Counted from the stretch's first letter, positions 121 through 63,404 are shown. The stretch: 64,000 bases of DNA from an uncultured Mycoplasmatota bacterium (GCA_900553395.1 USDJ01000006.1:13863-77862); one strand, 5' to 3'. Translations and numbers: made by a program. Notes: generated from the letters alone by a model not told the origin.

Positions 121-468
121 TTATTCACAATTACTTTTTTGAAATTTATACGAATAATTTCCGGCTTCAGATTTTATTAGGACTGATCCGGCTAATTTCT
201 GATCATTAATCATATTTTTTAAATTATCAGATTTTATATAGTTTTCACTTAGTAAATACTTTAATTCTACGCATTCAACATCACGATCCATTCCTTCATT
301 TAAATAATAATTTTTAGCAGCTTCTTCTATATTTGCAATTTGAGTTTTAGATAAACTTTTTCTAGAAGACGATATTAAATTCTTTACAGATACTAATGTA
401 ATAGATGCTATTACAGCAAGTATAACTATTACAGATAAAAGTTCTATTAATGTAAATCCCTTTTTCAT
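121..468 (-). CDS. Type IV pilin / pseudopilin-like protein (prepilin N-terminal cleavage-methylation domain)
   Basis: N-terminus MKKGFTLIELLSVIVILAVIA is a class III signal (G|FTLIE) followed by a hydrophobic helix. The size of 115 aa is typical of ComGC/GspG-like minor pilins. Confidence 0.8.
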   Translation of the reverse strand: MKKGFTLIELLSVIVILAVIASITLVSVKNLISSSRKSLSKTQIANIEEAAKNYYLNEGMDRDVECVELKYLLSENYIKSDNLKNMINDQKLAGSVLIKSEAGNYSYKFQKSNCE

Positions 469-602: not shown

Positions 603-702
603 AAATGTAATCAAAACTATCAAGGAAATTCAATTACTAATAAAGTATATCATATTTTTATAAAAAAATAAATACTAAATTTTAAAAAAATTAAAAATTA
701 AA

Positions 703-722
703 AGTGTATGATTTCATACACT
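703..722 (-). terminator. Intrinsic terminator after the NTase-ABC gene
   Basis: AGTGTATG-ATTT-CATACACT forms an 8-bp hairpin 30 nt past the stop at 754, followed on the minus strand by a T-rich tract. Confidence 0.5.
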
Positions 723-753
723 TCTACCTACTTACCTTTTTACTTGCTAAAAA

Positions 754-3033
754 TTATTCTTCCATTCGACTTAGCTTATTATAAAATTCACAATTTTCTA
801 ATAGTTTCTTATGATTTCCACAAGATATAATTTTTCCTTTATCTAATACCATTATTTTCTTACAGTCTTTAATCATATTTAATTCATGAGTAACAACTAT
901 TATTGTATGGTCCTTTTTTATATTATTTATTACTTTTTTTATTATAGAACTCGTATTGTTATCTAGTGAACTCGTAATTTCGTCTAATAAAATTATCGGT
1001 GTATTTCTTATAAGAGCACGCGCTATAGCTAGTCTTTGCCTTTCACCACCAGATAGGTTAACACCACCTTCACCTATCATAGTATCATATTTATTTGGAA
1101 GTGATTCTATAAATTCATCAAGGCAAACCAAGTTCATAACATTATTAATTTCCTCAGTTGTAATATTGCTTTTTACAAGGCGTAAATTATCTCTTATACT
1201 CATGTCAAATAAATAAGGATTTTGACTAATAACAGAAATAGTATTTCTCAAATATGATTCGCTTAATTCATTTATATTAATATTATCTATTAAAACAATA
1301 CCATTAGTCGCACTATGAATTTTACTTATAAGATTTAAAATAGTAGTTTTACCACTGCCACTTAAACCTACTATAGCAGCTTCCTCAAACGGTCCAACTT
1401 TAAATGAACAGTTTTTTAAAACAGGTTTAGTTTTGTAGCTAAAATCTACGTTTTTAAATTCTATCATACCAGTTGATTTTATTAACTCCTTATTGCCAAA
1501 TGATTCTTTTTTATAATCATCTTTGTTTAAAAGACTAAATATTCTATCACAAGATAAATTGAAATTAGCACGTATATCCATAAAATTAACTAATCTATTT
1601 AAAGACGTAAAGACACTCGTTCTATACATAAATATAATAACAAATGACTCACTCGACAATTGATTATTTTTAACTAATAATAATCCAACAAGTATTACTA
1701 CCCCTAAAGCAAAAAGTTCTACAAAACTTGATGCTTTATTATATATATTTTGATAATATTCTCCTTTAAATTCCAATTCTCCAGCCTTTGAAAATGATTT
1801 TACAGTTCTATCAATATAACTATTTTTTAGATTTAAAGATTTAATATCCCCTATTCCAGAAACCATTTCTCCTAAAATAGTAGAATACTTTTCCTGCTCG
1901 ATTAAGAATTTATTTTTTTCACACATTTTTTTCTTAATACCTATCATTTTTATTTTATATATAATTATAATGAAGATTAAAAATATTAATCCTAAGATCC
2001 AATTTAGATAAAAAATATATAATAATACCCCGAAGTTTCCTAGCCCATTTATTAATATATCTTTTATCTTATTAAAAGAAGATGCTATTTCATTTGGATC
2101 ATCTTTTATTTTATTTATAAATGAACCACTACTATTCTCAGTAAAATTAGAAATATCAAAATCTACTACATTTTTAGCTATTTGACTTCTTATATTAAAT
2201 ACCATCTGCTTCATTATAACAAGATAAAGCTTAGATAAATAGAAAGATGACATTATAGTTATAAGTTTTAGTGCAATCATAAATATAATAATTACTAAAA
2301 CATTTCTATATCCCCCATATAAAAGATTCGTTACTATATTTCCAGAAAGTGCTGGAGTTATCGCATAAGATAGTGCAATAACAATTCCAAGAAAAATAAT
2401 TAGTTTAAATTCTCTTTTTACTCCATCTAAAAATCTAAAGCACTTTCTAAAGTTTCCATTAATAATCTTATTTTTATATATTTTAGTCTTTTTCCGAAAC
2501 ATTTCAACGTGCCATTTAAATCTTTTTCTTTTAACTTTTACCCTTTTATTACTACCAGTTATATATTTTACAAATCTAATAAGCTTTTTTAACCTTCTTT
2601 TATCTCCAACAGTAGGTTGTTTATCAAAATTCATTTGAGTTATAGTTCTATTTTTATAAGAAAATGTCGCTCCAATTGGAATCAATAGTTTCTTTTCAAT
2701 GTCAAAAAATAACAAGTCGGTATCATATGTCACAACATCCAGTAAATCGTCTATAGTAGATAAATCTATTTCCATCCCATTATAATTTATTTTATAACCG
2801 CCAAATACGTTATATTTATATTTAATATGATATTTATCTAAGAACTGCTTTATTTCACACTTTTTTTGAGACAAAACTACAAAGTCTAAATCTCTTACTT
2901 TCTCACCCATAATTAAGCTTCTTATTGCTCCACCAAAAAGTAAAACAATTCCGTCAAACTTAAAGTCATATATTATCGGAAATGTTTCATGAATAAATTT
3001 ATCTATTACGTTTACATCTACATCATTTAGCAT
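754..3033 (-). CDS. ABC exporter half-transporter (TMD+NBD) with an extra N-terminal ~200-aa nucleotidyltransferase-fold domain
   Basis: The NBD has Walker A GLSGSGKTT, signature LSGGERQRLAIARAL, Walker B ILLDEITSSLD and VVTHEL. About six TM helices span aa ~205-500. The N-terminal domain carries GGAIRSLIMGEKVRDLDFVV (GGxxR...DxD, CCA-adding/poly(A)-polymerase-head or LicD-like) and is paralogous to ORF 3046-3624. Confidence 0.85.
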   Translation of the reverse strand: MLNDVDVNVIDKFIHETFPIIYDFKFDGIVLLFGGAIRSLIMGEKVRDLDFVVLSQKKCEIKQFLDKYHIKYKYNVFGGYKINYNGMEIDLSTIDDLLDVVTYDTDLLFFDIEKKLLIPIGATFSYKNRTITQMNFDKQPTVGDKRRLKKLIRFVKYITGSNKRVKVKRKRFKWHVEMFRKKTKIYKNKIINGNFRKCFRFLDGVKREFKLIIFLGIVIALSYAITPALSGNIVTNLLYGGYRNVLVIIIFMIALKLITIMSSFYLSKLYLVIMKQMVFNIRSQIAKNVVDFDISNFTENSSGSFINKIKDDPNEIASSFNKIKDILINGLGNFGVLLYIFYLNWILGLIFLIFIIIIYKIKMIGIKKKMCEKNKFLIEQEKYSTILGEMVSGIGDIKSLNLKNSYIDRTVKSFSKAGELEFKGEYYQNIYNKASSFVELFALGVVILVGLLLVKNNQLSSESFVIIFMYRTSVFTSLNRLVNFMDIRANFNLSCDRIFSLLNKDDYKKESFGNKELIKSTGMIEFKNVDFSYKTKPVLKNCSFKVGPFEEAAIVGLSGSGKTTILNLISKIHSATNGIVLIDNININELSESYLRNTISVISQNPYLFDMSIRDNLRLVKSNITTEEINNVMNLVCLDEFIESLPNKYDTMIGEGGVNLSGGERQRLAIARALIRNTPIILLDEITSSLDNNTSSIIKKVINNIKKDHTIIVVTHELNMIKDCKKIMVLDKGKIISCGNHKKLLENCEFYNKLSRMEE

Positions 3034-3045
3034 ATTTTACCTTCT

Positions 3046-3624
3046 TTATTTATCTAAAAACTTTAATATCTTACTAGGGTGTCTAAAAAATGATTTTATC
3101 AGTTCATAAACTCTATTATATCTGCGTTTAATCTTTACCTTTTTCTTGTCTTTACTTAAAAATTCAACAAACTTTTTTGCTTTTTTTACTCTCACTTTGG
3201 TTCTAAAATAACTCTGATAATAATATTCTATAACTACATTTTTCTTTATTGTATTTTTTATTCCCATAGGAATTAAGACTTTTCTTTTAATATCATAAAA
3301 TAAAAAGTCAGTGCTTAAATGTCCTGCATCATATAAATCACTTGTACAAGTTAAATCTATATCCAATCCATTATAGGTTATTTTATATCCCTTATATATA
3401 TTTTTCTTAAACTTAAGATCATACTTATCTATAAACTTTTCTATTTCACAATCTTTTGTGGTTAATAGCACGAAATCCAAATCTTTTATAGGTTTATTCA
3501 TTATGATATCTTTTATAGAACCACCAAAGAGTAAAATAAGCCCATTAAATTCAAAATCATATATCATTGGAAATAACTTACGAATAGATTTATCCAATTT
3601 ATTTATATCAATATTTTCAAACAT
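3046..3624 (-). CDS. Stand-alone nucleotidyltransferase-fold protein, paralog of the N-terminal domain of the adjacent ABC exporter
   Basis: FGGSIKDIIMNKPIKDLDFVLL motif, colinear with aa 1-200 of ORF 754-3033 (PxIYDFxFxG, YNGxxIDL, DxLFxDI, LIPxG). The likely start is ATG at 3624 (MFENID) after GGAAGTAGTGA. The track start at 3642 is a TTG. Confidence 0.7.
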   Translation of the reverse strand: MFENIDINKLDKSIRKLFPMIYDFEFNGLILLFGGSIKDIIMNKPIKDLDFVLLTTKDCEIEKFIDKYDLKFKKNIYKGYKITYNGLDIDLTCTSDLYDAGHLSTDFLFYDIKRKVLIPMGIKNTIKKNVVIEYYYQSYFRTKVRVKKAKKFVEFLSKDKKKVKIKRRYNRVYELIKSFFRHPSKILKFLDK

Positions 3625-3632
3625 TATAATCA

Positions 3633-5717
3633 CTACTTCCAATATGCATAAAAGTTTTTATGAGGTTTTTTTTCTTCCTCTTTGGTATAATCTACATATA
3701 AATTATTAAGATACTTCTTATATTCCTTTGGCGCCGGATATTTTTTATCTCTAAAGTTAACTATAACAGTTTTCTTAAATATATCGCTATCCATTATCTC
3801 TCTATCATATTTATAATGACAAACAATTCCAGACTTGTTACACTCTTCCATAGAATGCTTTTTACAAATCCTATCTACTAGTTTGGCAAAAAAATTATTT
3901 GGAAATATATATGTAAATATACTTGCTGTTTTATATAGTACTTTTTCAAATATATTTCTCTTTTCTAGATAACATCCCCACTTGCTCATGTTTAGCATTT
4001 TTAAAATTTTAACAAAATTTAGATATGTTTTACTAGGAGCACCATCTATTGGAAATATATCTATAAATACTCCATAATCTTTTATATGATTTTTACATTC
4101 GAATGCTATAGTATTAGAATTTACTAATTTGGCATATGGACAATAATAATCTTTGTTGTTTGGCGTTAATAATATTAATTCATTATTATCACTATAACTA
4201 TTTATAAATTTCTCGTATTCTACCCTAGGCATTATAATATCTATATCATCGTCCCAAGGAAAAAAATCTTTTCTTAAAATAGCACCCGCTAATGTGCCAC
4301 AACCTAAAAAATATTTTATATTATTTTTTTTACAAAAAGAGTCAAAGTTATTTAACATATCATATTGTAAATCTTGTATCTCACTTATACTTAATCTACT
4401 TCCTAACTTATAATCCTTATTAGGTTTTAGTTCTGAAGATAGAAGTCCTAGCACCACATAGTATAATGGGGCTACTGAGATAATACTTATATTAAAGAAT
4501 GCTTGTACAGAGTATCCAATAAAGCTTAAGAATAAGCAAATGAATATATAATCCTTACTATTTTTTTCTTTAAATATCTTTTTAATAGAAAGATAAAATA
4601 TTGTAAATAACAGGCTTAAGTACGCTAAAAGAGAAAATATTCCTTCTGTAACAAGTTTTTGTAAATATTCGTTGTGAGCCTTATCTACATATAAGCCACT
4701 TTTAATATCTATCAAGTGTTCGTCTTCAAAAGCATAATAAAAATTGTCGATTCCTGCGCCAGTAAATATATATTTAGGTACTATTTTTAATGTTTCTCTC
4801 CATATGTGAATTCTTCCTGTTCCATATGAATCTTTTATATCACCTTTGCTTACTGAAACCATTTCATTAGACGTTCTTTTAATTTCTCTTGCAAAGTGTC
4901 CATTGTTATTATAGCTAAAGTTATTAAAAATAAATATACAAGAAATAACTAAAATTATTGATTTTAAAATAGTAGTTTTTAAATTAAAATTCATAACTAT
5001 AATCAAAAATATAATAAATATAACGAGAACTGCAAGTGCTACTACAGCACTCATTGTTCCAGAAGTTAAAAGCCCTAGGAAAAATAAATTAACAATTAAA
5101 AAGCCTAATATACTATATTTAAGTTCATTCCTACTAAAAAATAGACCTAATGATATACTTAAGTTAATAACCATTACAGATCCTAAAAAATTAGGATTTA
5201 CTTCTAAACCAGTAGAATACCAAGCATTTTTAAGAATAGGAATAAATAGTATACTATCTACCTTATAAAATTGCATTATAGCATATGTTGCCTGCATGAT
5301 TCCTGTAAATAATATTAAACTTAATATTATATTTTTGCTTTTTTTATTATTTAAGTCTTTACAATTCAAAAATATAATATAATACGTAATGATTTGTAAA
5401 AAGCCTTCATTCCTTCCAGGACTTCCTAATAATGCAACATTAAAATTTACTGAAAATACAAGTGAAACAAAAGCTAACACAACCAGTATAAATATAAATT
5501 TATTAAAAATATTATCATCTATATTAAACAATTTTCTTTTTACTTTAAAAATAACAAGTCCAATAGTGCCTAATAGTGCTATACCTATCGAAAAAGAAGA
5601 AATACTAAAGTCATTATAAATATGTAATATATCACCAACTAAAAGAAACAGTATAAAACTGCATATATAAATAGTTGGAATTAAATTTTTAAAATAAAGT
5701 TTAGTCTTTTCGTTCAT
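3633..5717 (-). CDS. Fusion protein: O-antigen ligase/polymerase-like polytopic membrane domain plus C-terminal LicD-family phospho-alcohol transferase domain
   Basis: About 11 hydrophobic helices with DKAHNEYLQKLVTEGIF (Wzy_C/O-antigen ligase-like HNxYL..L.E.G). The C-terminal ~250 aa carry LGCGTLAGAILRKDFFPWDDDIDIIMPRVEY (LicD motif GTLLGA.R...F.PWDDDID). Confidence 0.8.
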   Translation of the reverse strand: MNEKTKLYFKNLIPTIYICSFILFLLVGDILHIYNDFSISSFSIGIALLGTIGLVIFKVKRKLFNIDDNIFNKFIFILVVLAFVSLVFSVNFNVALLGSPGRNEGFLQIITYYIIFLNCKDLNNKKSKNIILSLILFTGIMQATYAIMQFYKVDSILFIPILKNAWYSTGLEVNPNFLGSVMVINLSISLGLFFSRNELKYSILGFLIVNLFFLGLLTSGTMSAVVALAVLVIFIIFLIIVMNFNLKTTILKSIILVISCIFIFNNFSYNNNGHFAREIKRTSNEMVSVSKGDIKDSYGTGRIHIWRETLKIVPKYIFTGAGIDNFYYAFEDEHLIDIKSGLYVDKAHNEYLQKLVTEGIFSLLAYLSLLFTIFYLSIKKIFKEKNSKDYIFICLFLSFIGYSVQAFFNISIISVAPLYYVVLGLLSSELKPNKDYKLGSRLSISEIQDLQYDMLNNFDSFCKKNNIKYFLGCGTLAGAILRKDFFPWDDDIDIIMPRVEYEKFINSYSDNNELILLTPNNKDYYCPYAKLVNSNTIAFECKNHIKDYGVFIDIFPIDGAPSKTYLNFVKILKMLNMSKWGCYLEKRNIFEKVLYKTASIFTYIFPNNFFAKLVDRICKKHSMEECNKSGIVCHYKYDREIMDSDIFKKTVIVNFRDKKYPAPKEYKKYLNNLYVDYTKEEEKKPHKNFYAYWK

Positions 5718-6831
5718 AAAGTTCCTCTATTTCTTCTCTATATATTTTATCCATTATTTTTAATACATTCATTATTGAGTATTTATTAATTATATCACTA
5801 TTTTTACGTCCTAACTCTAAGGCATAGCTTTTATTATTTTTTAGGGTTCTTATAGCGCCAATTAGTCCTTCTTTATCCTTTATATCCACTACGAGGCCGT
5901 TTACTCCATTACAAATCAAATCCCTATTACCTCTACAATTTGTAACAATTATAGGCTTATTTTTATACATGGCTTCCATTATATTTAAAGGTAACCCCTC
6001 CTGTTTACTAACAGAAATAACTAAGTCACTAATATCTACATATTCATTTATATTATCTTTAAACCCAAGTAATTTAACACTATCTTCTAGTCCCTTTTTC
6101 TTTATAAATTTTCTTATTTTTTTATCTCTAGCATTGTTACCTATAAGAAGTAATTTTTCATTAGTAATATTCATTTCATAAAAAGCTTTTACCAAATACA
6201 TTTGACGTTTTCTATTTGATATTTCAGCCACATAAGATATTATATAATCACTATCTTTAAATCCTAACTCTCTTATAATCTTTTTTCTTTTTGAAGTAGA
6301 AATGCTTTTTGAAAACTTTTCTTCTTTAAAACCTATACCAGGAATATATTTTATTTTAGTCTTAAAATGCTTTTTAGCAAAATTATAATCCTCTTCATTC
6401 ATGGTAATTATAAGATCCGTATATTTTGACAAAATTTTCTCTATTGGGAAAAATAAAATCCAATTAATCCAAGGACATCCTTTAAAAAAATGAAATCCGT
6501 GAGCCGTATATATGACTTTAACATTATTTTTTTTTCTATAATGTAAAGCTGCTAATCTAGTAACTACTGCGGCACTTGGCGTATTTGTGTGAATTATATC
6601 ATATTTTTCTGTTTCTATTATTTTTTTTAATATAAAGATTGACTTTATATTATCTAACTTAAATGGGGTTCTCTTTATTGGAACTGAATAGCACTTAGAT
6701 GCATATTCAAGTTCTTTATTAGATGAAGTGGCTGTATGAACTATAAATCCGTTATCATTAAACCATTTTAAGTATGGTATATGACACAGATATAAATGTA
6801 TATATGTATTAGAAGTATAAAGTACTTTCAT
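5701..6831 (-). CDS. Glycosyltransferase family 4 (GT-B, Glycos_transf_1)
   Basis: C-terminal EGLPLNIMEAMYKNKPIIVTNCRGNRDLICNGVNG matches the E..G....EAM..G.P....G motif. RBS GGAGTGA precedes the ATG at 6831. Confidence 0.8.
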   Translation of the reverse strand: MKVLYTSNTYIHLYLCHIPYLKWFNDNGFIVHTATSSNKELEYASKCYSVPIKRTPFKLDNIKSIFILKKIIETEKYDIIHTNTPSAAVVTRLAALHYRKKNNVKVIYTAHGFHFFKGCPWINWILFFPIEKILSKYTDLIITMNEEDYNFAKKHFKTKIKYIPGIGFKEEKFSKSISTSKRKKIIRELGFKDSDYIISYVAEISNRKRQMYLVKAFYEMNITNEKLLLIGNNARDKKIRKFIKKKGLEDSVKLLGFKDNINEYVDISDLVISVSKQEGLPLNIMEAMYKNKPIIVTNCRGNRDLICNGVNGLVVDIKDKEGLIGAIRTLKNNKSYALELGRKNSDIINKYSIMNVLKIMDKIYREEIEELYERKD

Positions 6832-7020: not shown

Positions 7021-7563
7021 CTAAACAGTCATTAATTCTTGTTCTTTTACTTTAAACTTTTCATCTACTATTTTGTTATATTTATTTATTAGCTCTTGAA
7101 TTTCTTCTTGAGCACGTTTTTTATCATCTTCTGGCATTTCTAATTTTTTAACGTCGTTATTAGCATCTTGTCTTATATTTCTTAATGCTATTTTGCAATC
7201 TTCTGAATATTCTTTAGCTTGTTTTACATAATTTCTTCTTGTTTCTTCTGTAAGAGCTGGAATATTCAAAATAATTACTTCCCCATTATTATTTGGAGTT
7301 ATTCCAATATTAGCTTCATAGATAGCTTTTTCTATTGTACTAATACTTGTTTTATCAAAAGGCTTAATCATAAGTTGTCTAGCTTCTGGTATTGATATTG
7401 TTGCTAACTGTTTAAGTGGAGTATCTGAACCATAGTAGTTTACCATAACACCATCTAACATACTAGGGTTAGCGCGTCCAGCACGAATGTTTAAAAGCCT
7501 TTTTTCCATATTTTCTATAGCATTTTCCATAGACATTTCTGTTTCCATTAAGATTTCTTCCAT
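7021..7563 (-). CDS. frr: Ribosome recycling factor
   Basis: LLNIRAGRANPSMLDGVMVNYYGSDTPLKQLATISIPEARQLMIKPFD is characteristic of RRF. RBS AGGAGGAA is upstream. Confidence 0.95.
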   Translation of the reverse strand: MEEILMETEMSMENAIENMEKRLLNIRAGRANPSMLDGVMVNYYGSDTPLKQLATISIPEARQLMIKPFDKTSISTIEKAIYEANIGITPNNNGEVIILNIPALTEETRRNYVKQAKEYSEDCKIALRNIRQDANNDVKKLEMPEDDKKRAQEEIQELINKYNKIVDEKFKVKEQELMTV

Positions 7564-7571
7564 AATTCCTC

Positions 7572-9251
7572 CTATTTAATATTTTCTATTTCTTCTATAG
7601 CACTATCAATATTTATTTCTTTAATTTCTTCACTACTTCTTAGTTTTAATTCTACTATATCATCTGATACTTTCTTACCAATAGTTATTCTTACTGGAAT
7701 ACCTATTAGATCCATATCATTAAACTTAACTCCAGGACGTACATCTCTATCATCTAAAATAGTATCTATTCCAAGATTATTTAGTCTATTATATAAGTCT
7801 TGAGCTATTCCTACTTGTTTTTCATCTTTAGTAGATATAATTATGATTGCCACTTTATAAGGCGCTATAGAATAAGGCCATATTATACCTTTATCATCGT
7901 GTGACTGTTCTACAACACTGGCCATCACTCTAGGTACACCCAATCCATAACATCCCATATAAGGATAATTTAACTTGTTATCTTTATCCAAATAACTTAT
8001 ATTTAAAGCTTCACAATATTTAGTACCTAATTTAAATAAGTTTCCTACTTCTATTCCTCTTTTGAAATATAATTCACCATTACATTTTGGACACTTATCA
8101 CCTTCTACTGGCTGCTTTATATCACCTACGATATCGTATTTAAAATCGCTTACATTTCCATTTATATAGTGATAATTTTCCTTATTAGCTCCAAAGCAGA
8201 AGTTTCTCATATGTAAAATCTCATCGTCAATTACTATTTTAGCTTTTAAATCTTTTGGGCCAGTAAAACCAGGTACTGCATTTGATTTTTCAATCAATGC
8301 ATCATCTGCAAAATTAAATTCTTCAACACCCATTAATCTGCACACCTTAGCTTCACTTAATTCTCTATCGCCTCTAATAAAGAATACGACAAATTCACCA
8401 TTAACATTCATAAGTAATGCTTTAACACTGTTTTTTTTGTCAATATTTAAAAATTCGCAAACATCATCTATAGATTTACAATTTGGTGTTTCTACTAATT
8501 CTAAACTCTTATATTCATCAGTACTGTCTTCAATAGCTACGCTTGCAACTTCAACGTTTGTAGCATAATTACAATTTGAACAAAGCGCTAATAGATCCTC
8601 ACCAGTATCTGTTATAGCTTGATATTCCTCTGATAAAAAGCCACCCATAAGTCCTGTATCAGCTCTTACAATCTTATAATCTAAACCTATTCTGTCAAAT
8701 ATTTTATTATATGCAACATACATTTTTTTGTATGAATTATCAAGCCCTTCTAAATCTACATCAAAGCTATAAGCATCTTTCATGATAAACTCTCTAACTC
8801 TAATAAGCCCTAATCTAGGCCTTACTTCATCTCTATATTTATTACCTATTTGATATAAATTAAAAGGCATATCTTTATAGCTTTTTATCATAGAACCGGC
8901 TGCCATAGCAAATAATTCTTCGTGTGTTGGTCCAAGTGCTAAAGGACGATTATATCTATCCTTTAATTTAAACATACTACTGCCGAAATTATTAAGTCTT
9001 CCACTAGCTTCAAATACTTCTTGAGGAAGTAATTGTGGCATTCTAAGTTCTTGAGCACCAGCATTATTCATTTCTTCCCTAACAATATTTTCTATATTTT
9101 GTAAAACCTTTAATCCAAGTGGCATATATGTATAAATACCATTTCCGACTTTTTTTATCATACCTGATTTTACTAACAAATTGCCACTAATAGACTCTTC
9201 ATCACGTACATTTTCTCTTAATGTATAAAAAAATGAATTACTAAGTCTCAT
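7572..9251 (-). CDS. proS: Proline--tRNA ligase (bacterial type with insertion/editing domain)
   Basis: Length 559 aa. Class II aaRS motifs YQIGNKYRDEVRPRLGLIRVREFIMKDAYSF and GCYGLGVPRVMA are present. Confidence 0.93.
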   Translation of the reverse strand: MRLSNSFFYTLRENVRDEESISGNLLVKSGMIKKVGNGIYTYMPLGLKVLQNIENIVREEMNNAGAQELRMPQLLPQEVFEASGRLNNFGSSMFKLKDRYNRPLALGPTHEELFAMAAGSMIKSYKDMPFNLYQIGNKYRDEVRPRLGLIRVREFIMKDAYSFDVDLEGLDNSYKKMYVAYNKIFDRIGLDYKIVRADTGLMGGFLSEEYQAITDTGEDLLALCSNCNYATNVEVASVAIEDSTDEYKSLELVETPNCKSIDDVCEFLNIDKKNSVKALLMNVNGEFVVFFIRGDRELSEAKVCRLMGVEEFNFADDALIEKSNAVPGFTGPKDLKAKIVIDDEILHMRNFCFGANKENYHYINGNVSDFKYDIVGDIKQPVEGDKCPKCNGELYFKRGIEVGNLFKLGTKYCEALNISYLDKDNKLNYPYMGCYGLGVPRVMASVVEQSHDDKGIIWPYSIAPYKVAIIIISTKDEKQVGIAQDLYNRLNNLGIDTILDDRDVRPGVKFNDMDLIGIPVRITIGKKVSDDIVELKLRSSEEIKEINIDSAIEEIENIK

Positions 9252-20091: not shown

Positions 20092-21597
20092 TTAGTATGC
20101 GTTATTTATGAAGTATTTTTCATAAAAAGCTGATTTTTTCATAAGTTCATTATTAAAAGCATCATAGCCAAGTTCTTCTGCCAGAGTTTCACTTGATGAA
20201 AATAAGTCTGTTCCAAGACCTAAATGGTCATTTTCTATAGAAACGCCAAGAGCTGACAACGTTGTTGGAAACATATCTAATGTTGTAAATACTCTGTTTT
20301 TAGAATTAACCGGAACTTTATCTGTATTTATAAATGCATTATAAACACTTCTATTATAGCCACTATCTATAGAATCAAAAAATGTCTCCTGCATAGTAAA
20401 ATGATCTCCAGTTATTATTATAACTGTATCTTTATAAAAATCTTGTTCCTTAATCCAATTTATAAATTCATAAATCATACTATCCGAACATGAAAATGAA
20501 TTAGAATAATTGTCCTTAAATTTTTTCTCACAAGAAGAATCCAAATAGCCATCTGGAAAATGTGTATCGGCCGTTAACAAAGTAAAATTAAATGGTTCAT
20601 CACTTTTAGATATTTCTAGCAATTTATCTTTAGCAAAGGCAAACAATTTTTTATCTTCATAACCCCACCATACTTTATAATTTTTACTTATTAATTTATT
20701 TTTTCTAGCATATTCATAATCATAAATCTCATATTTCCCATGGTAACTAAAATAATCATCGCGGCATCCAAATGCAGCATCTGAGCCAATCATAAAATAA
20801 TTTTTATAACCGTTATCAAGTAAAATATCACCTAATGTATATAATCCTTTAATAGAATTATCATAACTTAAATCAGTATTTACATCAATAGACACTTTTA
20901 GTGGCACACCAGAAGTCTGCGCTATAAGCGCACCTGCTGTGTAAGTTGCGCCACTTACTTCATATCCACCACCTAAATTTTCTCTATTACTAAAATTAAG
21001 ATTATTTAGCGCTATAGACTCTAAATTAGGTATTATAGACTCTTCTAATGCTCCTCCATTTGCTTTTGAAGCAAAAGTAGATTCAAGTGACTCTACATAA
21101 ATATATATTAAATTTTTCTTCTTTTCTGGAAACGTTATGTTAACATTTCTAGGATCTATATAAAGTTCATCATATATCTTAGAATATTGATTTTGATACT
21201 TAATAAATTCATCAATTTTAAGTATTTTAACTGGAAGAAGTATACTAAATATTATATATAGAGTAAAAATTATCTTTCCTATATAATCTATAGCATCTAA
21301 TTGTGACTTCTTATCTTTTATAGTAATATTAACAAATACCTTACCTTTAAATTTTTGTGATATTTTTAATATTACTAGATAAATAGATATTGCTATAACA
21401 CCTGATATAACAACAAATAATAATCCTTTAGAAATTGAAGAAAAGCTTGTCCCTTTACTAGTCATCAAACTATAAACTATTTGCTCAAAAGGAACAGATT
21501 TAAAAGTATACTTTATATATAAAGATATAAGTACAACAAGAAGTAAAATTAATTCAAATATATATTTAATTACTTTTTTTGTGTTTTGGTTTTTCAT
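20092..21597 (-). CDS. LTA-synthase/sulfatase-family phospho(glycerol/ethanolamine) transferase
   Basis: Three N-terminal TM helices precede an extracytoplasmic sulfatase-like domain (LIYIYVESLES, GATYTAGALIAQTSG, LLTADTHFP, IIITGDH). Confidence 0.75.
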   Translation of the reverse strand: MKNQNTKKVIKYIFELILLLVVLISLYIKYTFKSVPFEQIVYSLMTSKGTSFSSISKGLLFVVISGVIAISIYLVILKISQKFKGKVFVNITIKDKKSQLDAIDYIGKIIFTLYIIFSILLPVKILKIDEFIKYQNQYSKIYDELYIDPRNVNITFPEKKKNLIYIYVESLESTFASKANGGALEESIIPNLESIALNNLNFSNRENLGGGYEVSGATYTAGALIAQTSGVPLKVSIDVNTDLSYDNSIKGLYTLGDILLDNGYKNYFMIGSDAAFGCRDDYFSYHGKYEIYDYEYARKNKLISKNYKVWWGYEDKKLFAFAKDKLLEISKSDEPFNFTLLTADTHFPDGYLDSSCEKKFKDNYSNSFSCSDSMIYEFINWIKEQDFYKDTVIIITGDHFTMQETFFDSIDSGYNRSVYNAFINTDKVPVNSKNRVFTTLDMFPTTLSALGVSIENDHLGLGTDLFSSSETLAEELGYDAFNNELMKKSAFYEKYFINNAY

Positions 21598-21950: not shown

Positions 21951-21975
21951 CAAACAAAAAAGGCATTTAAGCCTT
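21951..21975 (-). terminator. Intrinsic terminator of the candidate ncRNA
   Basis: The minus strand reads AAGGC-TTAAAT-GCCTT followed by TTTTTGTTTG. It lies 45 nt upstream of the next start codon. Confidence 0.6.
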
Positions 21976-22564
21976 AATTTAATCTATGGCATTAATATAG
22001 TTAACTTTACGTCTTAGGTCAAGTTGGATTTCCCTAAATATTACTTATCGTTACCAATAAGCGGTTCCCCATTAAAATATTTAGTATATTGTCACCAAAT
22101 ATACTACTTGATTGCCACTTAGTACGCACTACAATCCTATATTAACAACACTCTAGAAGATTTCCTCACCAAATTCTTGTTATTAATTCTTTTTTGCAAA
22201 TAGTATTTCAAATTGCACTTCAGTAGATTCTAGCTAAAAATTTACTAAACTGTTAACCAATTATCCCAACTATTCACTCAAGACAAGCTACACTACCCAT
22301 AACTTTCATCACAAAGTAGGTTTAATCCTATTTCGTATTCAGTCCGTCAGTAATTTCGTATAGGCAAAACACAACAATAGGTCTCCACGAATGGTGGGTC
22401 AGTTGCCATATGCCATTATGGTTGCCCAACATCCTCATTTCCAGCACTCACCCTACACTGGGCGTATAAAGCAAGCACAAGAAGTTTCACAGATATGCTC
22501 TTTAACGGATTTTTAGCCCCGTCTTCATAACAATTATTTGACTAGAATAATGTGCCATTGATGC
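21952..22564 (-). ncRNA. Candidate large (~610 nt) structured non-coding RNA, family unassigned
   Basis: No ORF of 60 aa or more in any frame. Its own promoter and terminator are listed as separate features. G+C rises to 29/60 in each of 22381-22440 and 22441-22500, against 11/60 in the coding line 22681-22740. Many helices can be drawn on the minus strand: 22083-22105 (8 bp), 22043-22062 (with a G.U pair), 22014-22037, 21979-21995, 22327-22364, 22302-22317, 22385-22397, and a long-range helix 22223-22235 with 22286-22296. Confidence 0.6.
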
Positions 22565-22569
22565 ACTAG

Positions 22570-22598
22570 ATTATAGCAAATTTACTTAATTTTGTCAA
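22570..22598 (-). promoter_or_regulatory. Near-consensus sigma-A promoter driving the candidate ncRNA
   Basis: The minus strand reads TTGACA (22598-22593), a 17-nt spacer ending in TGC (extended -10), then TATAAT (22575-22570). Confidence 0.65.
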
Positions 22599-22635: not shown

Positions 22636-24042
22636 TTAAAACCTAAAATATATAAAAGGATTATAAGTATTGCTAATTAAAAGGCATATGCAAAATATAA
22701 ATATCATTATATAAAGTAAATCTTCAATAATATAGTAATGCTTAAATGAGCTAAACTTCTTATTTATTTTATCAAATATAGGGAAACTAAATAGAAATGC
22801 AAATGGTATATATAAATAATAGTTAAGTAAGCTATAATTAATAGATAATGCTGCTTCTATAGGTAGTGATTTAAAATTAAAAATATTTTTAAATACATAA
22901 AGTAATAAATTTAAGTCTTCTGCTCTAAATATTATCCAACCGATATTTATTAATATAAACGTATATAACCATCTTACAAAGCCATTCCACTTAGACATGA
23001 ATTCTAATAAAAATAGCTTTTCTATCAATAAAATAATTGCAAAGTATACTCCCCAAATAATGAAATTCCAACTAGCTCCATGCCACAATCCTGTTAAAAT
23101 CCACACTATAATTATATTTCTAATCCATTTTGCTTTAGATACCCTATTACCTCCAAGAGGTATATATAAATAATCCCTAAACCATGATGATAATGAAATA
23201 TGCCATCTTCTCCAAAATTCAGTTATACTCTTTGACACATATGGATAATTAAAATTCTCTAAAAAGTCAAAGCCAAACATTGCCCCTAAACCAATAGCCA
23301 TATCACTATATCCTGAAAAATCAAAATATATCTGAAAAGTATATGCTAATGTGCCTAAAATTAATACTATTCCAGTATAATTGTTACTAATAGCAGAATT
23401 AAAAATTGTATCTGCTATTAAAGCCATATTATTAGCTATTATTATTTTTTTACTCAATCCTATTATAAATCTTCTAAGACCATTTGAAAATTTTTCTACA
23501 GAATGCTTTCTTTTTTTTAGTTCTTTTTCTACAGTTGAATATCTAACAATGGGTCCAGCTATAAGTTGAGGAAAAAGTGTTACATAAGTTGCTAGAAGTA
23601 AGATATTCTTTTGAACTTTAACTTCACCTCTATATACATCTATGACATAAGATAATGTTTGAAATGTATAAAAACTTATACCTATTGGTAAAACAAGATT
23701 AATAGTAATATTATTAGTATTAAATATATTTGAGAAAATACTATTAAAAAATCCCAAATATTTAAATATAAATAAAGTTAATATATTAAAAACTATAGTC
23801 AGTACTAATAATTTTTTCTTTAGAGATATTTTGCGTTTATATTTATCTATCAATATTGCAAAATAATAATTTAATACAATAGATAAAATCATCAAAATTA
23901 TGTATCTTGGCTCTCCCCAAGAGTAAAAAACTAATGAAAAGAACAATAGAACATAATTTTTATATTTATCTTTAGAGATATAATAAATAAGCAATGTAAT
24001 AGGTAAAAATATAAACAAAAATGTTAAACTACTAAAAACCAT
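22636..24042 (-). CDS. MBOAT-family membrane O-acyltransferase (AlgI/DltB-like)
   Basis: Polytopic protein with ITEFWRRWHISLSSWFRDYLYIPLGGNR and LTGLWHGASWNF, the MBOAT histidine region. Confidence 0.88.
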   Translation of the reverse strand: MVFSSLTFLFIFLPITLLIYYISKDKYKNYVLLFFSLVFYSWGEPRYIILMILSIVLNYYFAILIDKYKRKISLKKKLLVLTIVFNILTLFIFKYLGFFNSIFSNIFNTNNITINLVLPIGISFYTFQTLSYVIDVYRGEVKVQKNILLLATYVTLFPQLIAGPIVRYSTVEKELKKRKHSVEKFSNGLRRFIIGLSKKIIIANNMALIADTIFNSAISNNYTGIVLILGTLAYTFQIYFDFSGYSDMAIGLGAMFGFDFLENFNYPYVSKSITEFWRRWHISLSSWFRDYLYIPLGGNRVSKAKWIRNIIIVWILTGLWHGASWNFIIWGVYFAIILLIEKLFLLEFMSKWNGFVRWLYTFILINIGWIIFRAEDLNLLLYVFKNIFNFKSLPIEAALSINYSLLNYYLYIPFAFLFSFPIFDKINKKFSSFKHYYIIEDLLYIMIFIFCICLLISNTYNPFIYFRF

Positions 24043-38573: not shown

Positions 38574-39329
38574 CTATTTATTAATTTCAAAATCATAATT
38601 TATAAATTGATCTAAGCTTAAATTCTTATCGTCTATATAGTAATCAGCATTTGGTTTTCCGAATCTAATCTCATCATATTTAACATTGTTTTTTTCCATC
38701 CAGTTTTTAGTAACATTTAAATATTTTTTTTCTATTAATTCTATATTATTGCCACAACTATTTTGTCCACGTGCTGTAAATAATATTATTCGCCATCCTT
38801 TATCATGCAACTCGTTTATTTTTTTTATAACATCAGGATTAGGAATAGAATTTTCAAAATCTCTATTAATAGTAAAATTGATTGTATCATCTATATCTAC
38901 AACAATAGTGTTATAAACTTTTGAATTTGATTTAGTGCTCTCCTTTATAATTTTTTTAGCCCTAGTAGTTGAGACATTAGGTGTTCTTTCAATAAATTTC
39001 ACTTCACAGTATTCTTCAATATTAACTATATCAGGATAACCTTTATAATCGCTACCTATTGCAAATATATCAACATTTTCTTTTTTTAGTATCTCAAATT
39101 TGTCTTCTTGCTTATCTATTGGAACAACCTCATCTACAAATCTTATTGATTTAAGCATTTCTTTTCTTTGTTCATATGAATATGCTACAATTTTTCCACT
39201 TTTAGCAACACAAGAATCTGTATTGAGTCCAACCACAAGGTAATCACCCATTTTTTTTGCTCTTTCTAAAAGTTTAATATGTCCTATATGCATAATATCG
39301 AATGTTCCAGTTGTCATTACTTTTATCAT
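38574..39329 (-). CDS. Fusion: glycerol-3-phosphate cytidylyltransferase (TagD-like) plus C-terminal HAD-type phosphatase domain
   Basis: TTGTFDIMHIGHIKLLERAKKMGDYLVVGL is the cytidylyltransferase HxGH motif. The C-terminal half has VVDIDDTI (DxDxT), LFTARG and YYIDDK. Confidence 0.8.
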   Translation of the reverse strand: MIKVMTTGTFDIMHIGHIKLLERAKKMGDYLVVGLNTDSCVAKSGKIVAYSYEQRKEMLKSIRFVDEVVPIDKQEDKFEILKKENVDIFAIGSDYKGYPDIVNIEEYCEVKFIERTPNVSTTRAKKIIKESTKSNSKVYNTIVVDIDDTINFTINRDFENSIPNPDVIKKINELHDKGWRIILFTARGQNSCGNNIELIEKKYLNVTKNWMEKNNVKYDEIRFGKPNADYYIDDKNLSLDQFINYDFEINK

Positions 39330-40372
39330 TTAAAATTCCTCTCTTTCTTGTGATCAAATAATATATCCGTGCTAAAAACAAATAACATAAGGCTTATCAT
39401 AAGTATTCCATATATTATATATCCAATTTCTTTATCTACTAAAAGCCATATAATTGAAGCTACTGAAAATAAAGTAGTAATTAAATATATTATCAAAACT
39501 GTAGTCCTTATACTACAATTCCTTCTTAATAATTGATGATGAAAATGACTCTTATCTGGAGTTCCAATACTTTCACCCTTTAATTTCCTTCTTATTATCG
39601 CACAAACAGTATCAAGAATTGGTACCACAAGTATGCAAAGAGGAATTATTATTGCTGACGTAAGAATTGTTTTAAATCCTAAAAGTGTTATAACAGAAAT
39701 TATAAAGCCTAAAAACATAGAACCTGTATCTCCCATAAATATCTTTGCTGGATAAAAATTATGAGCTAAAAATCCTAATGTTGAGCCTAACATTATAAAT
39801 GTTATTACAACAGACAATCCAATTCTACCTTGATAATAAGCTATTATTCCTATAGTAAGGAAAAATATAGAGCTTATTCCACTTGCTAGCCCATCAAGCC
39901 CATCTATTAAATTCATACAATTAATACATCCCAAAATAAATAATATCGTAATGGGATATGCAAAAATTTTAAAGTCGATATAAAATCCTAAGAAACTTAC
40001 GTCTCTTAAAAGTAAATTTCCATAAAATACTACTATAATTGCAGCGAGTATTTGCCCTACTAGCTTATGCGAAGCTTTCAATGGCTTAATATCGTCCAAT
40101 ATCCCAGTTATAATTATAACAAAGCTTCCTATTAATATAGAATTCATTATAGCTGTGTGCTCGCCAAAAATCATATAACCTAGCAAAAAACCAGAATATA
40201 TACCAAGGCCACCCATTCTTGGCATAGGTTTAGTATGCACTTTTCTTGCATTAGGTATATCTAATGCACCTACGTGAAAAGCTATCTTTTTTATTATAGG
40301 TATTATACTAACAACAAAAACAAATGGTATAAATACCATACACAAAATTGTATTTAAGTTTATATTACTCAT
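39326..40372 (-). CDS. Polyprenyl-phosphate N-acetylhexosamine-1-phosphate transferase (WecA/TagO, MraY superfamily)
   Basis: Polytopic protein with ILDDIKPL, NCMNLIDGLDGLASG and IFMGDTGSMFLGF. Confidence 0.85.
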   Translation of the reverse strand: MSNINLNTILCMVFIPFVFVVSIIPIIKKIAFHVGALDIPNARKVHTKPMPRMGGLGIYSGFLLGYMIFGEHTAIMNSILIGSFVIIITGILDDIKPLKASHKLVGQILAAIIVVFYGNLLLRDVSFLGFYIDFKIFAYPITILFILGCINCMNLIDGLDGLASGISSIFFLTIGIIAYYQGRIGLSVVITFIMLGSTLGFLAHNFYPAKIFMGDTGSMFLGFIISVITLLGFKTILTSAIIIPLCILVVPILDTVCAIIRRKLKGESIGTPDKSHFHHQLLRRNCSIRTTVLIIYLITTLFSVASIIWLLVDKEIGYIIYGILMISLMLFVFSTDILFDHKKERNFK

Positions 40373-63330: not shown

Positions 63331-63345
63331 ATTATCACCATTTTA

Positions 63346-63377: not shown

Positions 63378-63404
63378 ATAATCTAAAATTTAATTTTAAA
63401 AATT

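What the first reader, a model, noticed from the sequence alone, without database searches (positions are those of the whole stretch)
754..3642. Nucleotidyltransferase-fold domain fused to the N-terminus of an ABC exporter, with a stand-alone paralog immediately upstream
ORF 754-3033 is a normal TMD-NBD half-transporter of the MsbA/PglK architecture, except for an extra ~200-aa N-terminal domain. That domain contains GGAIRSLIMGEKVRDLDFVV, the GGxxR...DxD signature of pol-beta-superfamily nucleotidyltransferases (CCA-adding/poly(A)-polymerase head, LicD-like). ORF 3046-3624 is a free-standing paralog of that domain, colinear over ~190 aa. Both copies share a very basic C-terminal tail (KVKRKRFKW and KIKRRYNRVY). 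The N-terminal accessory domains I know on ABC exporters are peptidases (C39), not NTases. Together with the LicD fusion next door, the operon encodes three NTase-fold modules, two of them tethered to membrane machines. This suggests that export or flipping of a lipid-linked glycan is coupled to a phospho-alcohol or nucleotidyl modification. The 4-gene module (754-6831) sits between tRNA-Lys and the frr terminator and looks like an accessory insertion, although no integrase is present.
Basis: partly seen in the sequence, partly recalled or inferred. Interest (0 to 1): 0.65.

Follow-up and report, generated by a model that had tools for sequence, protein, structure and literature searches.

The report
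Nucleotidyltransferase head fused to ABC exporter
An uncultured human-gut bacterium carries a membrane exporter with an enzyme domain of the tRNA-CCA/poly(A)-polymerase type on its cytoplasmic end and a free copy of that domain next door, inside a conserved cell-surface glycan-modification operon; the combination has not been described and what the enzyme domain does is unknown.

Summary
ORF 754-3033(-) is an MsbA/ABCB-type half-transporter with about 200 extra N-terminal residues. ORF 3046-3624(-) is a 43%-identical paralog of that extension (E=6e-50). The extension is a head-only class II (CCA-adding/poly(A)-polymerase type) nucleotidyltransferase, not LicD-like. Support: an AF2 model (pLDDT 93) whose top 45 PDB matches are all class II enzymes, hhalign probability 91% to the E. 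coli Cca head against 0.2% to LicD, and Pfam PolyA_pol above threshold in relatives. The GG..R/DxD motif is kept, and so is an invariant acid at the inferred third-carboxylate position. Class II motif B (RRD) and the neck and body are absent. The fusion recurs in at least 26 metagenomic 90%-identity clusters, all unnamed. In every one of six lineages examined the NTase genes lie next to LicD and a GT4 module, and in five also next to Wzy_C and the ABC. In some lineages the paralog is fused in tandem in front of the ABC-proximal domain. The ABC-proximal copy always keeps its catalytic residues; the other copy is degenerate in 17 of 29 cases but intact here. My best model is a membrane-apposed NTase pair that modifies a lipid-linked glycoconjugate before flipping; this is inferred, not shown. 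The "island" reading is only partly supported. I rate it a new variant of known kinds, of moderate to high interest.

The parts
754..3033 (-). NTase::ABC fusion gene (759 aa): class II NTase head plus basic linker (aa 1-205), type IV exporter TMD (aa 206-500), canonical NBD (aa 501-759)
   Evidence: ORF; Pfam ABC_membrane and ABC_tran; closest solved half-transporter is MsbA, 231 bits; RBS AAGGT before the ATG; Walker A, signature and Walker B intact
2419..3033 (-). N-terminal nucleotidyltransferase domain (aa 1-205): head aa ~1-135, helix 144-159, basic linker/elbow helix 171-192
   Evidence: AF2 model pLDDT 93, pTM 0.83; Foldseek top 45 PDB hits all class II CCA/A-adding/PAP I enzymes, best E=4.8e-6; hhalign probability 91% to E. 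coli Cca aa 2-125; PHROG 'nucleotidyltransferase' and 'tRNA nucleotidyltransferase' E~4e-4; Pfam PolyA_pol 17.5 bits, below the cut-off of 23
2884..2934 (-). Motif A: G34 G35 xx R38 ... D48 L D50 (catalytic GG..R/DxD); an invariant acid, D90, is encoded at 2764-2766
   Evidence: Aligns with GGGVRD..KDFD of E. coli PAP I and GGAVRD..KDRD of E. coli Cca; invariant in 15 within-species variants; D[LF]D kept in 24 of 24 fused clusters
3046..3624 (-). Free-standing paralog (192 aa from the ATG; the ORF opens at TTG 3642), catalytic motifs intact, cationic amphipathic C-terminal helix
   Evidence: 43% identity, E=6e-50 to the fused domain; clade B in the NJ tree, motifs GGK-D-D-D intact; tail muH 0.76, reached by 0.8% of shuffles; orthologs of this copy are fused in tandem in front of the ABC-proximal domain in P0002/P0129, P0006 and P0250
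3633..5717 (-). Wzy_C (O-antigen-ligase-like, about 10-12 TM) :: LicD fusion (694 aa); LicD domain aa 462-674 = nt 3696-4334
   Evidence: Pfam LicD 1e-37, Wzy_C 1e-14; WaaL 7tpg E=8e-5; separate Wzy_C and LicD genes in L003, L005, L041 and L047; crude TM scan
5701..6831 (-). GT4 glycosyltransferase (376 aa), first gene of the operon
   Evidence: Pfam Glycos_transf_1 and Glyco_trans_4_2; BshA 5d00 E=7e-20; its N-terminal half is fused to LicD in L043/L046
6849..6877 (-). Promoter-like site TTGTCT-17-TATAAT upstream of GT4 (consensus match only)
699..726 (-). Terminator-like hairpin plus T-run after the ABC gene (consensus match only)
121..468 (-). Type IV prepilin-like gene (115 aa); possibly associated with the cassette, not proven
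   Evidence: Pfam N_methyl; a pilin-like gene also follows the cassette in L005-7 and L046 although the other flanks differ; 36% identity over 111 aa to the L046 copy

Best explanation
SHOWN. The first ~200 residues of the ABC protein are a head-only class II (CCA-adding/poly(A)-polymerase type) nucleotidyltransferase domain. It keeps the metal and triphosphate motif (GG..R, DxD, and an invariant acid at the inferred third-carboxylate position). A highly basic linker joins it to an MsbA/ABCB-type exporter. The upstream gene is an ancient paralog of this domain. Both belong to a conserved cassette, GT4 - Wzy_C - LicD - NTase paralog - NTase::ABC, found in uncultured low-GC Bacillota known only from metagenomes (the window MAG is from human gut).

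INFERRED. The ABC-proximal domain is the catalytic subunit. The paralog is its partner, a hetero-dimer mate that has often lost its catalytic residues. Basic tails and the ABC fusion hold the pair against the cytoplasmic face of the membrane. There the pair carries out a nucleotide-dependent transfer on the lipid-linked glycoconjugate that GT4 and LicD build: either nucleotidylation of a hydroxyl, or a LicD-like transfer from a nucleotide-activated donor. The exporter then flips the product, and Wzy_C transfers it to its final acceptor outside. That acceptor may be the linked pilin-like protein or a wall or lipid anchor. Tethering the enzyme to the exporter would couple completion of the modification to export. 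My confidence in the fold and architecture part is about 0.9; for the mechanism it is about 0.35-0.4 (the confidence field gives the mechanism).
For: Fold:
- AF2 model pLDDT 93; Foldseek top 45 PDB hits are all class II NTases.
- Family profile against PDB sequences: PAP I E=3e-4, aligned on motif A.
- hhalign probability 91% to the Cca head.
- Relatives pass the Pfam PolyA_pol threshold; PHROG hits.

Catalytic competence and constraint:
- G34, G35, R38, D48, D50 and D90 are invariant in 15 population variants, and the domain varies no more than the TMD or NBD.
- D[LF]D is kept in 24 of 24 fused clusters and GG in 22 of 24.
- All 10 sequences with a demonstrable ABC fusion in the tree are intact.

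Partnership with the paralog:
- The genes are adjacent, 12 nt apart.
- Natural tandem fusions paralog::NTase::ABC occur in P0002/P0129, P0006 and P0250.
- The paralog clade has lost catalytic residues in 17 of 29 members.

Pathway link:
- NTase genes are next to LicD and a GT4 module in 6 of 6 lineages, and next to Wzy_C and the ABC in 5 of 6.
- Fusions Wzy_C::LicD (window) and GT4N::LicD (L043/L046) tie the other parts together.
- The related stand-alone G2 proteins (21 metagenome loci checked) have no LicD, Wzy_C or GT4 neighbours, so the linkage is specific to this subfamily.

Membrane apposition:
- Tails carry +17 and +11 net charge, and the paralog tail is an amphipathic helix.
- The N-terminus of type IV exporters is cytoplasmic (established knowledge).

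The ABC part is closest to the lipid flippases MsbA and ABCB1/ABCB4.
Against: - No biochemical data exist; neither substrate nor donor is known.
- Class II motif B (RRD) aligns with V100-V101-T102, and the neck (motif D) and body are missing. The usual NTP-ribose and base contacts are therefore not there.
- One lineage keeps four NTase paralogs plus GT4N::LicD without any ABC or Wzy_C nearby.
- Two lineages have fully degenerate NBDs. Export coupling is thus not universal.
- No priming phosphoglycosyltransferase lies in the cassette, so the lipid acceptor is a guess.
- Nucleotidylated bacterial glycolipids or glycans have no precedent that I know of.
Confidence: 0.4

Rival explanations
1. Donor synthesis: the NTase pair replaces LicC/TagD/TarI. 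It condenses CTP (or another NTP) with a phospho-alcohol to make the CDP-alcohol that the adjacent LicD consumes, channelling it at the membrane.
For: NTase genes are always next to LicD. None of the six cassette contexts encodes a LicC, TagD or TarI-type cytidylyltransferase (same calls). LicD requires a CDP-activated donor made by LicC in the Lic-1 pathway (PMC10434233). Class II enzymes bind CTP and ATP (established knowledge).
Against: A phosphate nucleophile is not known chemistry for class II or pol-beta NTases, which activate hydroxyls (established knowledge). A soluble donor-making enzyme has no need of a membrane tether, a basic tail, or 2-4 paralogs that include dead copies. The window already encodes a TagD-like CTP_transf_like enzyme at 38574-39329.
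Confidence: 0.2
2. Non-catalytic accessory: the domains act as nucleotide-sensing or substrate-docking modules, analogous to the inactive C39-like domains of some peptide exporters. They would gate or scaffold the LicD/GT4/Wzy_C/ABC complex without doing chemistry.
For: The paralog clade is degenerate in 17 of 29 members. Motif B and the neck are missing. Gene fusions among all the components suggest one membrane complex.
Against: The ABC-proximal copy keeps every catalytic residue in all fused lineages, and within the species. That is not expected for a pure scaffold. It stays intact even where the NBD has decayed.
Confidence: 0.15
3. RNA-directed activity: a membrane-tethered, CCA/poly(A)-type 3'-end nucleotidyltransferase acting on an RNA (tRNA or another RNA), unrelated to the glycan genes.
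For: The closest structures and profiles are tRNA NTases and PAP I. Stand-alone relatives occur in phage-like DNA next to Thg1 and in a 112-kb viral contig. The basic tails could bind RNA.
Against: There are no neck, body or tail RNA-binding domains, and no RRD motif. The subfamily's strict linkage to LicD/GT4 and its fusion to an exporter are unexplained by RNA work. The G2 relatives lack that linkage.
Confidence: 0.05
4. Artefact: a mis-called or chimeric ORF, or a recent frameshift fusion with no function.
For: One related database entry (P0146) does look like an assembly chimera.
Against: The same 759-aa protein is on 4 independent contigs. The 15 listed members of its 28-member 90%-identity cluster are all 759 aa. 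There are 26 fused clusters at 48-57% identity, substitutions in the domain are conservative, and an RBS precedes the ATG.
Confidence: 0.01

Closest known systems
Class II tRNA nucleotidyltransferases / bacterial poly(A) polymerase I (Pfam PolyA_pol head, PF01743)
   Same: Same fold and same motif A (GGxxR(D)...DxD), and an invariant acid on a neighbouring strand that I take to be the third carboxylate. These are the best structural and profile matches.
   Different: Only the head is present (about 135 aa plus a short helical extension). Motif B (RRD), the neck (EDxxR), and the body and tail that hold the RNA are missing. The window proteins score below the Pfam cut-off. The context is glycan genes, not RNA genes.
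Short head-only 'PolyA_pol head' / 'tRNA nucleotidyltransferase' proteins of phages, and the stand-alone 160-200 aa proteins (my group G2) of low-GC gut Bacilli
   Same: Closest sequence relatives (E down to 1e-30 with the family profile). Similar size. BFVD matches of 167-220 aa. They pass the PolyA_pol threshold.
   Different: They lack the basic C-terminal tail, have no LicD/GT4/Wzy_C/ABC neighbours, and some are phage-borne next to Thg1. Their function is also unknown.
MsbA / ABCB-type (type IV) lipid flippases; PglK
   Same: TMD-NBD half-transporter with canonical motifs. MsbA is the best solved half-transporter (231 bits), with ABCB1 and ABCB4 above it as full transporters. A role in flipping a lipid-linked substrate is plausible.
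   Different: It carries an N-terminal enzyme domain. It scores far below the MsbA (323 vs 602) and PglK (166 vs 1000) equivalog cut-offs.
Peptidase-containing ABC transporters (PCATs, N-terminal C39 domain)
   Same: The only well-known case of a cytoplasmic N-terminal enzyme domain on a type IV exporter that processes cargo just before export (established knowledge). It is a logical analogue.
   Different: The fold and chemistry differ (cysteine peptidase vs NTase). No C39 match is present. The cargo here is probably a lipid-linked glycoconjugate, not a peptide.
Lic-1 / teichoic-acid phosphocholine pathway (LicA-D, TacF, TacL) and Mycoplasma fermentans GGPL synthesis (Mf1 LicD-like + Mf3 GT)
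   Same: LicD plus a glycosyltransferase plus a flippase plus a Wzy_C-family ligase is the same logic (PMC10434233, and established knowledge). The LicD domain hits NCBIfam Mf1 at 1e-21.
   Different: The cassette has no LicA/B/C. The flippase is an ABC, not a MOP/Wzx type. The NTase pair has no counterpart. The Mf1 score (78) is far below the cut-off of 225.
WbdD-Wzt coupling in ABC-dependent O-antigen export (E. coli O9a)
   Same: Conceptual parallel: a terminal chemical modification is read or made at the exporter, so that only finished chains are exported (established knowledge).
   Different: That system uses a different transporter class (type V, Wzm/Wzt), a kinase/methyltransferase, and a carbohydrate-binding module. 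There is no sequence relationship, and this was not tested here.

Membership tests
Class II nucleotidyltransferase superfamily (PolyA_pol head fold) | Motif A: GGxxR(D) followed about 9-10 residues later by DxD | tested here: met
   aa 34-50 GGAIRSLIMGEKVRDLD; aligned to the PAP I and Cca motif A
Class II nucleotidyltransferase superfamily (PolyA_pol head fold) | Pol-beta-like head fold similar to solved class II enzymes | tested here: met
   Model pLDDT 93; Foldseek top 45 hits class II, E=4.8e-6 to 1.4e-3, probability 1.0, TMq 0.39-0.51; hhalign probability 91%
Class II nucleotidyltransferase superfamily (PolyA_pol head fold) | Pfam PF01743 at or above the gathering score (23 bits) | tested here: not met
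   17.5 bits (fused domain) and 17.9 bits (paralog). Met only by relatives: P0024 30.9, P0117 28.2, P0089 27.3 bits
CCA-adding enzyme / poly(A) polymerase I (functional family) | Motif B (RRD) for ribose recognition | tested here: not met
   The Cca RRD aligns with V100-V101-T102
CCA-adding enzyme / poly(A) polymerase I (functional family) | Neck (motif D, EDxxR), body and tail domains that template nucleotides and hold the RNA | tested here: not met
   The domain ends at about aa 200 and runs into TM1. hhalign covers only Cca aa 2-125. No PolyA_pol_RNAbd or tRNA_NucTran2 hits
CCA-adding enzyme / poly(A) polymerase I (functional family) | RNA 3'-end nucleotidyl transfer activity | not testable with these tools
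   Needs an enzyme assay
LicD family (PF04991) | Profile match to LicD | tested here: not met
   No Pfam LicD hit on the N-domain or the paralog. hhalign of the family against the cassette LicD domains gives probability 0.2%. No entry described as LicD/FKRP/fukutin in the Foldseek top 50
Type IV (ABCB/MsbA-like) ABC exporter | ABC_membrane TMD followed by an ABC_tran NBD with Walker A, signature, Walker B and H-loop | tested here: met
   Pfam 77.8 and 101.5 bits; motifs GLSGSGKT, LSGGERQR, ILLDE, VTHE
MsbA (lipid A flippase) equivalog | NCBIfam TIGR02203 at or above 602 bits | tested here: not met
   323 bits
PglK equivalog | NCBIfam NF050066 at or above 1000 bits | tested here: not met
   165.8 bits
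PCAT (peptidase-containing ABC transporter) | N-terminal C39 peptidase or C39-like domain | tested here: not met
   No Peptidase_C39 hit. NHLP and bacteriocin ABC models match only from aa ~176-195 onward and score below their cut-offs
Known anti-phage defence systems (PADLOC) | Match of the NTase domain to a defence-system model | tested here: not met
   No hit for the paralog, G2 or G3; the fusion hits only through its NBD

The most novel reading that the evidence does not exclude
The ABC-tethered class II NTase head adds a nucleotide (or a nucleotide-derived phospho-group) to a lipid-linked glycan or glycolipid as a checkpoint for flipping. That would be a new chemical class of bacterial surface-glycoconjugate modification. 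It would also be the first enzyme-coupled lipid or glycan ABC flippase, working with a pseudo-enzyme partner, and possibly feeding a Wzy_C-type transferase that decorates a Gram-positive pilin-like protein.
Probability: 0.2. Interest if true: 0.85.

Novelty: new variant of a known kind. Interest (0 to 1): 0.6.

Why it matters
ABC exporters with a built-in cargo-processing enzyme are known essentially only from peptide secretion (C39 peptidases). A nucleotidyltransferase tethered to an MsbA-like flippase, inside a LicD/GT4/Wzy_C operon, points to an unrecognised step in how some gut Firmicutes build or decorate surface glycoconjugates. These are molecules that shape host recognition; phosphocholine-type decorations are immunologically active.

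The finding also defines a new, Pfam-invisible subfamily of head-only class II nucleotidyltransferases, recruited from an RNA-type enzyme fold into envelope biogenesis. Its active and inactive paralog pairing gives a clear handle for experiments.

Because standard domain annotation does not see the domain (no PF01743 in any of the 26 fused clusters), the architecture cannot be found in domain-architecture databases.

Tried and rejected
- **LicD-likeness of the N-domain:** rejected (hhalign probability 0.2%; no Pfam LicD hit).
- **PDB sequence search with the 3-sequence profile:** found nothing useful. It worked only after the family was enlarged.
- **First AF2 model with 3 sequences:** mediocre (pLDDT 70). 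It was replaced by the 65-sequence model.
- **The search for related loci on genome contigs with alignments:** failed or found nothing.
- **Hand-made degenerate DNA pattern:** recovered only G2-type stand-alone relatives in GTDB genomes, JGI metagenomes and IMG/VR. No cultured host of the fusion was found.
- **Defence-system reading:** rejected (PADLOC).
- **Compositional island:** rejected (GC about 25% throughout the window).
- **Names and taxonomy from cluster look-ups:** none carried names. One G3 relative is a hypothetical protein of Sporanaerobium hydrogeniformans, next to an HD-domain gene.
- **Literature searches for an NTase-ABC fusion or this cassette:** returned nothing relevant.
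- **P0146 (NTase + LpxB-like C-terminus):** judged an assembly chimera.
- **Amphipathicity of the fused domain's linker:** not significant (13% of shuffles reach it). Only the paralog's tail is significant.
- **hhalign alignment between motif A and the DL...D region:** low confidence. The equivalence of D90 to the class II third carboxylate is therefore inferred, not shown.

Full report
**1. What is in the sequence**

All features lie on the minus strand. In transcription order they are:
- proS (7572-9251) and frr (7021-7563);
- a 190-nt spacer with an AT-rich hairpin plus T-run, then a promoter-like TTGTCT-17-TATAAT site (6877-6849);
- a GT4 glycosyltransferase (5701-6831);
- a Wzy_C::LicD fusion (3633-5717);
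- a 192-aa ORF (3046-3624, counted from the ATG);
- a 759-aa ORF (754-3033);
- a terminator-like hairpin (726-699), tRNA-Lys(CTT) (527-602), and a type IV prepilin-like gene (121-468).

The 759-aa protein has Pfam ABC_membrane at aa 211-477 and ABC_tran at aa 539-688, with canonical Walker A, signature, Walker B and H-loop motifs. Its closest solved half-transporter is MsbA, and ABCB1/ABCB4 score higher still as full transporters. No Pfam model covers the first ~205 residues above threshold. Those residues align with the upstream ORF at 43% identity over 190 residues (E=6e-50). Both copies end in very basic tails.

The window comes from a human-gut MAG (GCA_902477035.1). The same 759-aa protein is on four independent contigs. 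Its 90%-identity cluster has 28 members, and the 15 listed are all 759 aa. The fusion is real.

**2. What the extra domain is**

Directly, both copies give only sub-threshold Pfam PolyA_pol hits (17.5 and 17.9 bits against a cut-off of 23), plus PHROG 'nucleotidyltransferase' and 'tRNA nucleotidyltransferase' hits at about 4e-4.

A profile search of 1.84 billion representative proteins found 127 relatives. They fall into three groups:
- G1: about 190-205 aa, free or fused, with a basic tail.
- G2: stand-alone, 160-200 aa.
- G3: stand-alone, 225-270 aa.

G2 and G3 members pass the PolyA_pol gathering score (for example 30.9, 28.2 and 27.3 bits).

Further evidence came from the 65-sequence alignment:
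- Its profile hits E. coli poly(A) polymerase I, Aquifex A-adding enzyme and human CCA enzyme in the PDB by sequence (E=3e-4 to 3e-3), aligned exactly on GGxxRD...DxD.
- hhalign against the E. coli Cca protein gives probability 91% over the Cca head, aa 2-125.
- The AlphaFold model rises from pLDDT 70 to 93, with pTM 0.83.
- The model's top 45 PDB matches are all class II tRNA nucleotidyltransferases or PAP I.
- Its best viral matches are short phage 'PolyA polymerase head' or 'tRNA nucleotidyltransferase' proteins.

By contrast, the family shows no profile similarity to the cassette's own LicD domains (probability 0.2%).

The domain is therefore a class II, CCA/PAP-type pol-beta head, not a LicD-like module. 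It is head-only. The Cca motif B (RRD) aligns with V100-V101-T102, and nothing corresponds to the neck (motif D), body or tail. Membership of the superfamily is met; membership of the functional CCA/PAP family is not.

**3. Is it likely to be catalytic?**

- Among 15 within-species variants, G34, G35, R38, D48, D50 and D90 are invariant. The domain is no more variable (12% of sites) than the TMD (8.5%) or the NBD (20%), and its substitutions are conservative.
- Among 24 fused clusters at 48-57% identity to the window protein, the ABC-proximal domain always keeps D[LF]D and [RK]. It keeps GG in 22; two have SG.
- A neighbour-joining tree splits G1 into two clades. Clade A holds the ABC-proximal copies, and all 10 demonstrably fused members are intact. 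Clade B holds the free or distal copies, and 17 of 29 have lost one or more catalytic residues.
- The window's free paralog belongs to clade B but is intact (GGSIK...DLD...IDL).
- In three lineages the clade-B copy is fused in tandem in front of the clade-A copy (P0002/P0129 958 aa, P0006 945 aa, P0250 941 aa). There it is always degenerate.

An always-active copy, an often-dead partner, adjacency and natural tandem fusion together form the classic signature of an enzyme/pseudo-enzyme hetero-dimer. That reading is an inference.

**4. Genomic context**

I recovered six lineages with enough flanking DNA.
- Five carry GT4 - Wzy_C - LicD - (paralog) - NTase::ABC in that order, but in different chromosomal neighbourhoods:
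  - frr / tRNA-Lys in the window;
  - ileS-like / gerA operon in L003;
  - tsaD, ISL3 transposase remnants / pilin-like, UDG in L005-7;
  - LigB-AMMECR1 in L041;
  - DUF421 in L047/48.
- The sixth (L043/L046) has FtsH-SecG, then two NTase paralogs, a GT4-N-domain::LicD fusion, two more NTase paralogs (one degenerate), two arylsulfotransferase-family genes and a pilin-like gene. It has no ABC and no Wzy_C.

NTase genes are thus next to LicD and a GT4 module in 6 of 6 lineages. The fusions Wzy_C::LicD, GT4N::LicD, NTase::ABC and NTase::NTase::ABC link all the parts.

As a control, I examined 21 G2 loci from metagenomes; one viral contig and one chromosomal example (L090) were examined as well. 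None has LicD, Wzy_C or GT4 neighbours. One G2 gene sits beside Thg1 in phage-like DNA, and another sits among housekeeping genes. One G3 gene sits beside an HD-domain gene. The LicD link is therefore specific to G1.

A prepilin-like gene follows the cassette in three lineages whose other flanks differ. The window and L046 copies are 36% identical over 111 residues. This may point to the target of the pathway, or it may be drift.

**5. How it most likely works**

Shown:
- a catalytically intact class II NTase head joined by a +17 linker to a canonical type IV exporter;
- a paralog with a cationic amphipathic C-terminal helix (muH 0.76, reached by 0.8% of shuffles);
- an operon with GT4, LicD and a Wzy_C-family transferase.

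Inferred:
- The NTase pair sits on the cytoplasmic face of the membrane. The N-termini of type IV exporters are cytoplasmic, and the positive-inside rule agrees.
- It performs a nucleotide-dependent transfer on the lipid-linked intermediate that GT4 and LicD build.
- The exporter flips the product, and Wzy_C hands it to its final acceptor.

Three observations limit the 'coupled to export' part. One lineage lacks the ABC altogether. Two (P0006, P0020) have NBDs in which Walker A, signature, Walker B and H-loop are all degenerate while the NTase motifs remain intact. And there is no precedent for nucleotidylated bacterial glycolipids.

The main rival is that the pair makes LicD's CDP-alcohol donor. 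No cassette encodes a LicC, TagD or TarI-type enzyme, and LicD needs such a donor (PMC10434233). Against this rival:
- the chemistry would be unusual for this fold;
- a donor-making enzyme has no need of membrane tethering or of dead paralogs;
- the window already encodes a TagD-like enzyme 35 kb away.

A purely non-catalytic scaffold is disfavoured by the strict conservation of the active-site residues. An RNA-directed role is disfavoured by the missing RNA-binding domains and by the glycan-gene linkage.

**6. The 'accessory insertion' claim**

The four genes form their own transcription unit, by consensus signals only. The cassette occupies six different neighbourhoods in related genomes, once beside IS remnants, so it is a shuffled accessory module. 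However, its GC content (about 25%) matches the rest of the window. The tRNA-Lys flank is unique to this genome, there is no integrase, and I could not find an empty site. The verdict is partly supported.

**7. Novelty**

The fusion occurs in 26 clusters at 90% identity (48-57% identical to the query apart from the query's own cluster, 692-958 aa apart from two truncated entries). All come from metagenome assemblies, all are unnamed, and none has PF01743 in its precomputed Pfam annotation. It is therefore invisible to domain-architecture resources. Full-text searches found no description of it. Every component kind is known: a class II NTase head, a type IV ABC exporter, LicD, GT4 and Wzy_C. 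What is new is the subfamily, its recruitment to an envelope pathway, its pairing of active and inactive copies, and its fusion to an exporter. I rate it a new variant of known kinds, with interest 0.6.

Noticed in passing
window 21970-22574 (-): Full-length OLE (ornate large extremophilic) RNA, 389 bits, model positions 1-616 of 616, in a 25%-GC human-gut MAG that also carries spore genes.
   Followed up: no
window ~20092-42700 (-): Large teichoic-acid-like or wall-glycopolymer cluster. It includes a TagO-like Glycos_transf_4 (39326-40372), a TagD-like CTP_transf_like (38574-39329), a Wzx-type Polysacc_synt fused to TagF-like Glyphos_transf (35943-38570), an O-antigen_lig::GT2 fusion (31301-33799), two GT_STM0557_N proteins, GtrA, an Alg14/Alg13-like pair, PIG-L, MBOAT (22636-24042) and an LtaS-like sulfatase (20092-21597).
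   Followed up: partly
window 121-468 (-); L005 11547-11984; L046 14440-14823: A solitary type IV prepilin-like gene follows the cassette in three lineages whose other flanks differ. The window and L046 copies are 36% identical over 111 aa. Wzy_C-family enzymes include pilin O-oligosaccharyltransferases, so this protein could be the pathway's target.
   Followed up: partly
window 62042-64000 (-): Three further N_methyl (pilin or pseudopilin-like) genes at the far end of the window.
   Followed up: no
L041 7086-9923 (P0006); P0020: Two fused lineages have ATPase domains with Walker A, signature, Walker B and H-loop all degenerate, yet intact NTase motifs. They look like pseudo-transporters kept as membrane anchors.
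   Followed up: partly
L043 1191-4929; L046 7022-14823: A cassette variant without ABC or Wzy_C: four free NTase paralogs (three intact, one degenerate) around a fusion of the GT4 N-terminal domain to LicD, followed by two arylsulfotransferase-family genes (one with LRR_5) and a pilin-like gene.
   Followed up: partly
L040 6222-7498; L110 9387-9890; L090 8664-9146: Stand-alone head-only class II NTases (G2, 160-200 aa) are common in low-GC gut Bacilli MAGs (e.g. Clostridium sp. CAG:628) and occur in a 112-kb viral contig. One lies directly after a Thg1-family gene in phage-like DNA, which hints at tRNA-end repair, and carries a weak Pfam Gad2 hit.
   Followed up: partly
L003 14831-15430 (-): The lineage with the tandem NTase::NTase::ABC protein also has a third, free and catalytically intact paralog 6 kb downstream on the opposite strand, next to a LigB/AMMECR1 gene. 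In L041 that LigB/AMMECR1 gene abuts the cassette.
   Followed up: no
P0146 (339 aa, 1.6-kb contig): A database protein that joins an ABC-proximal-type NTase domain to an LpxB-like C-terminus of different composition. It is most likely an assembly chimera.
   Followed up: partly
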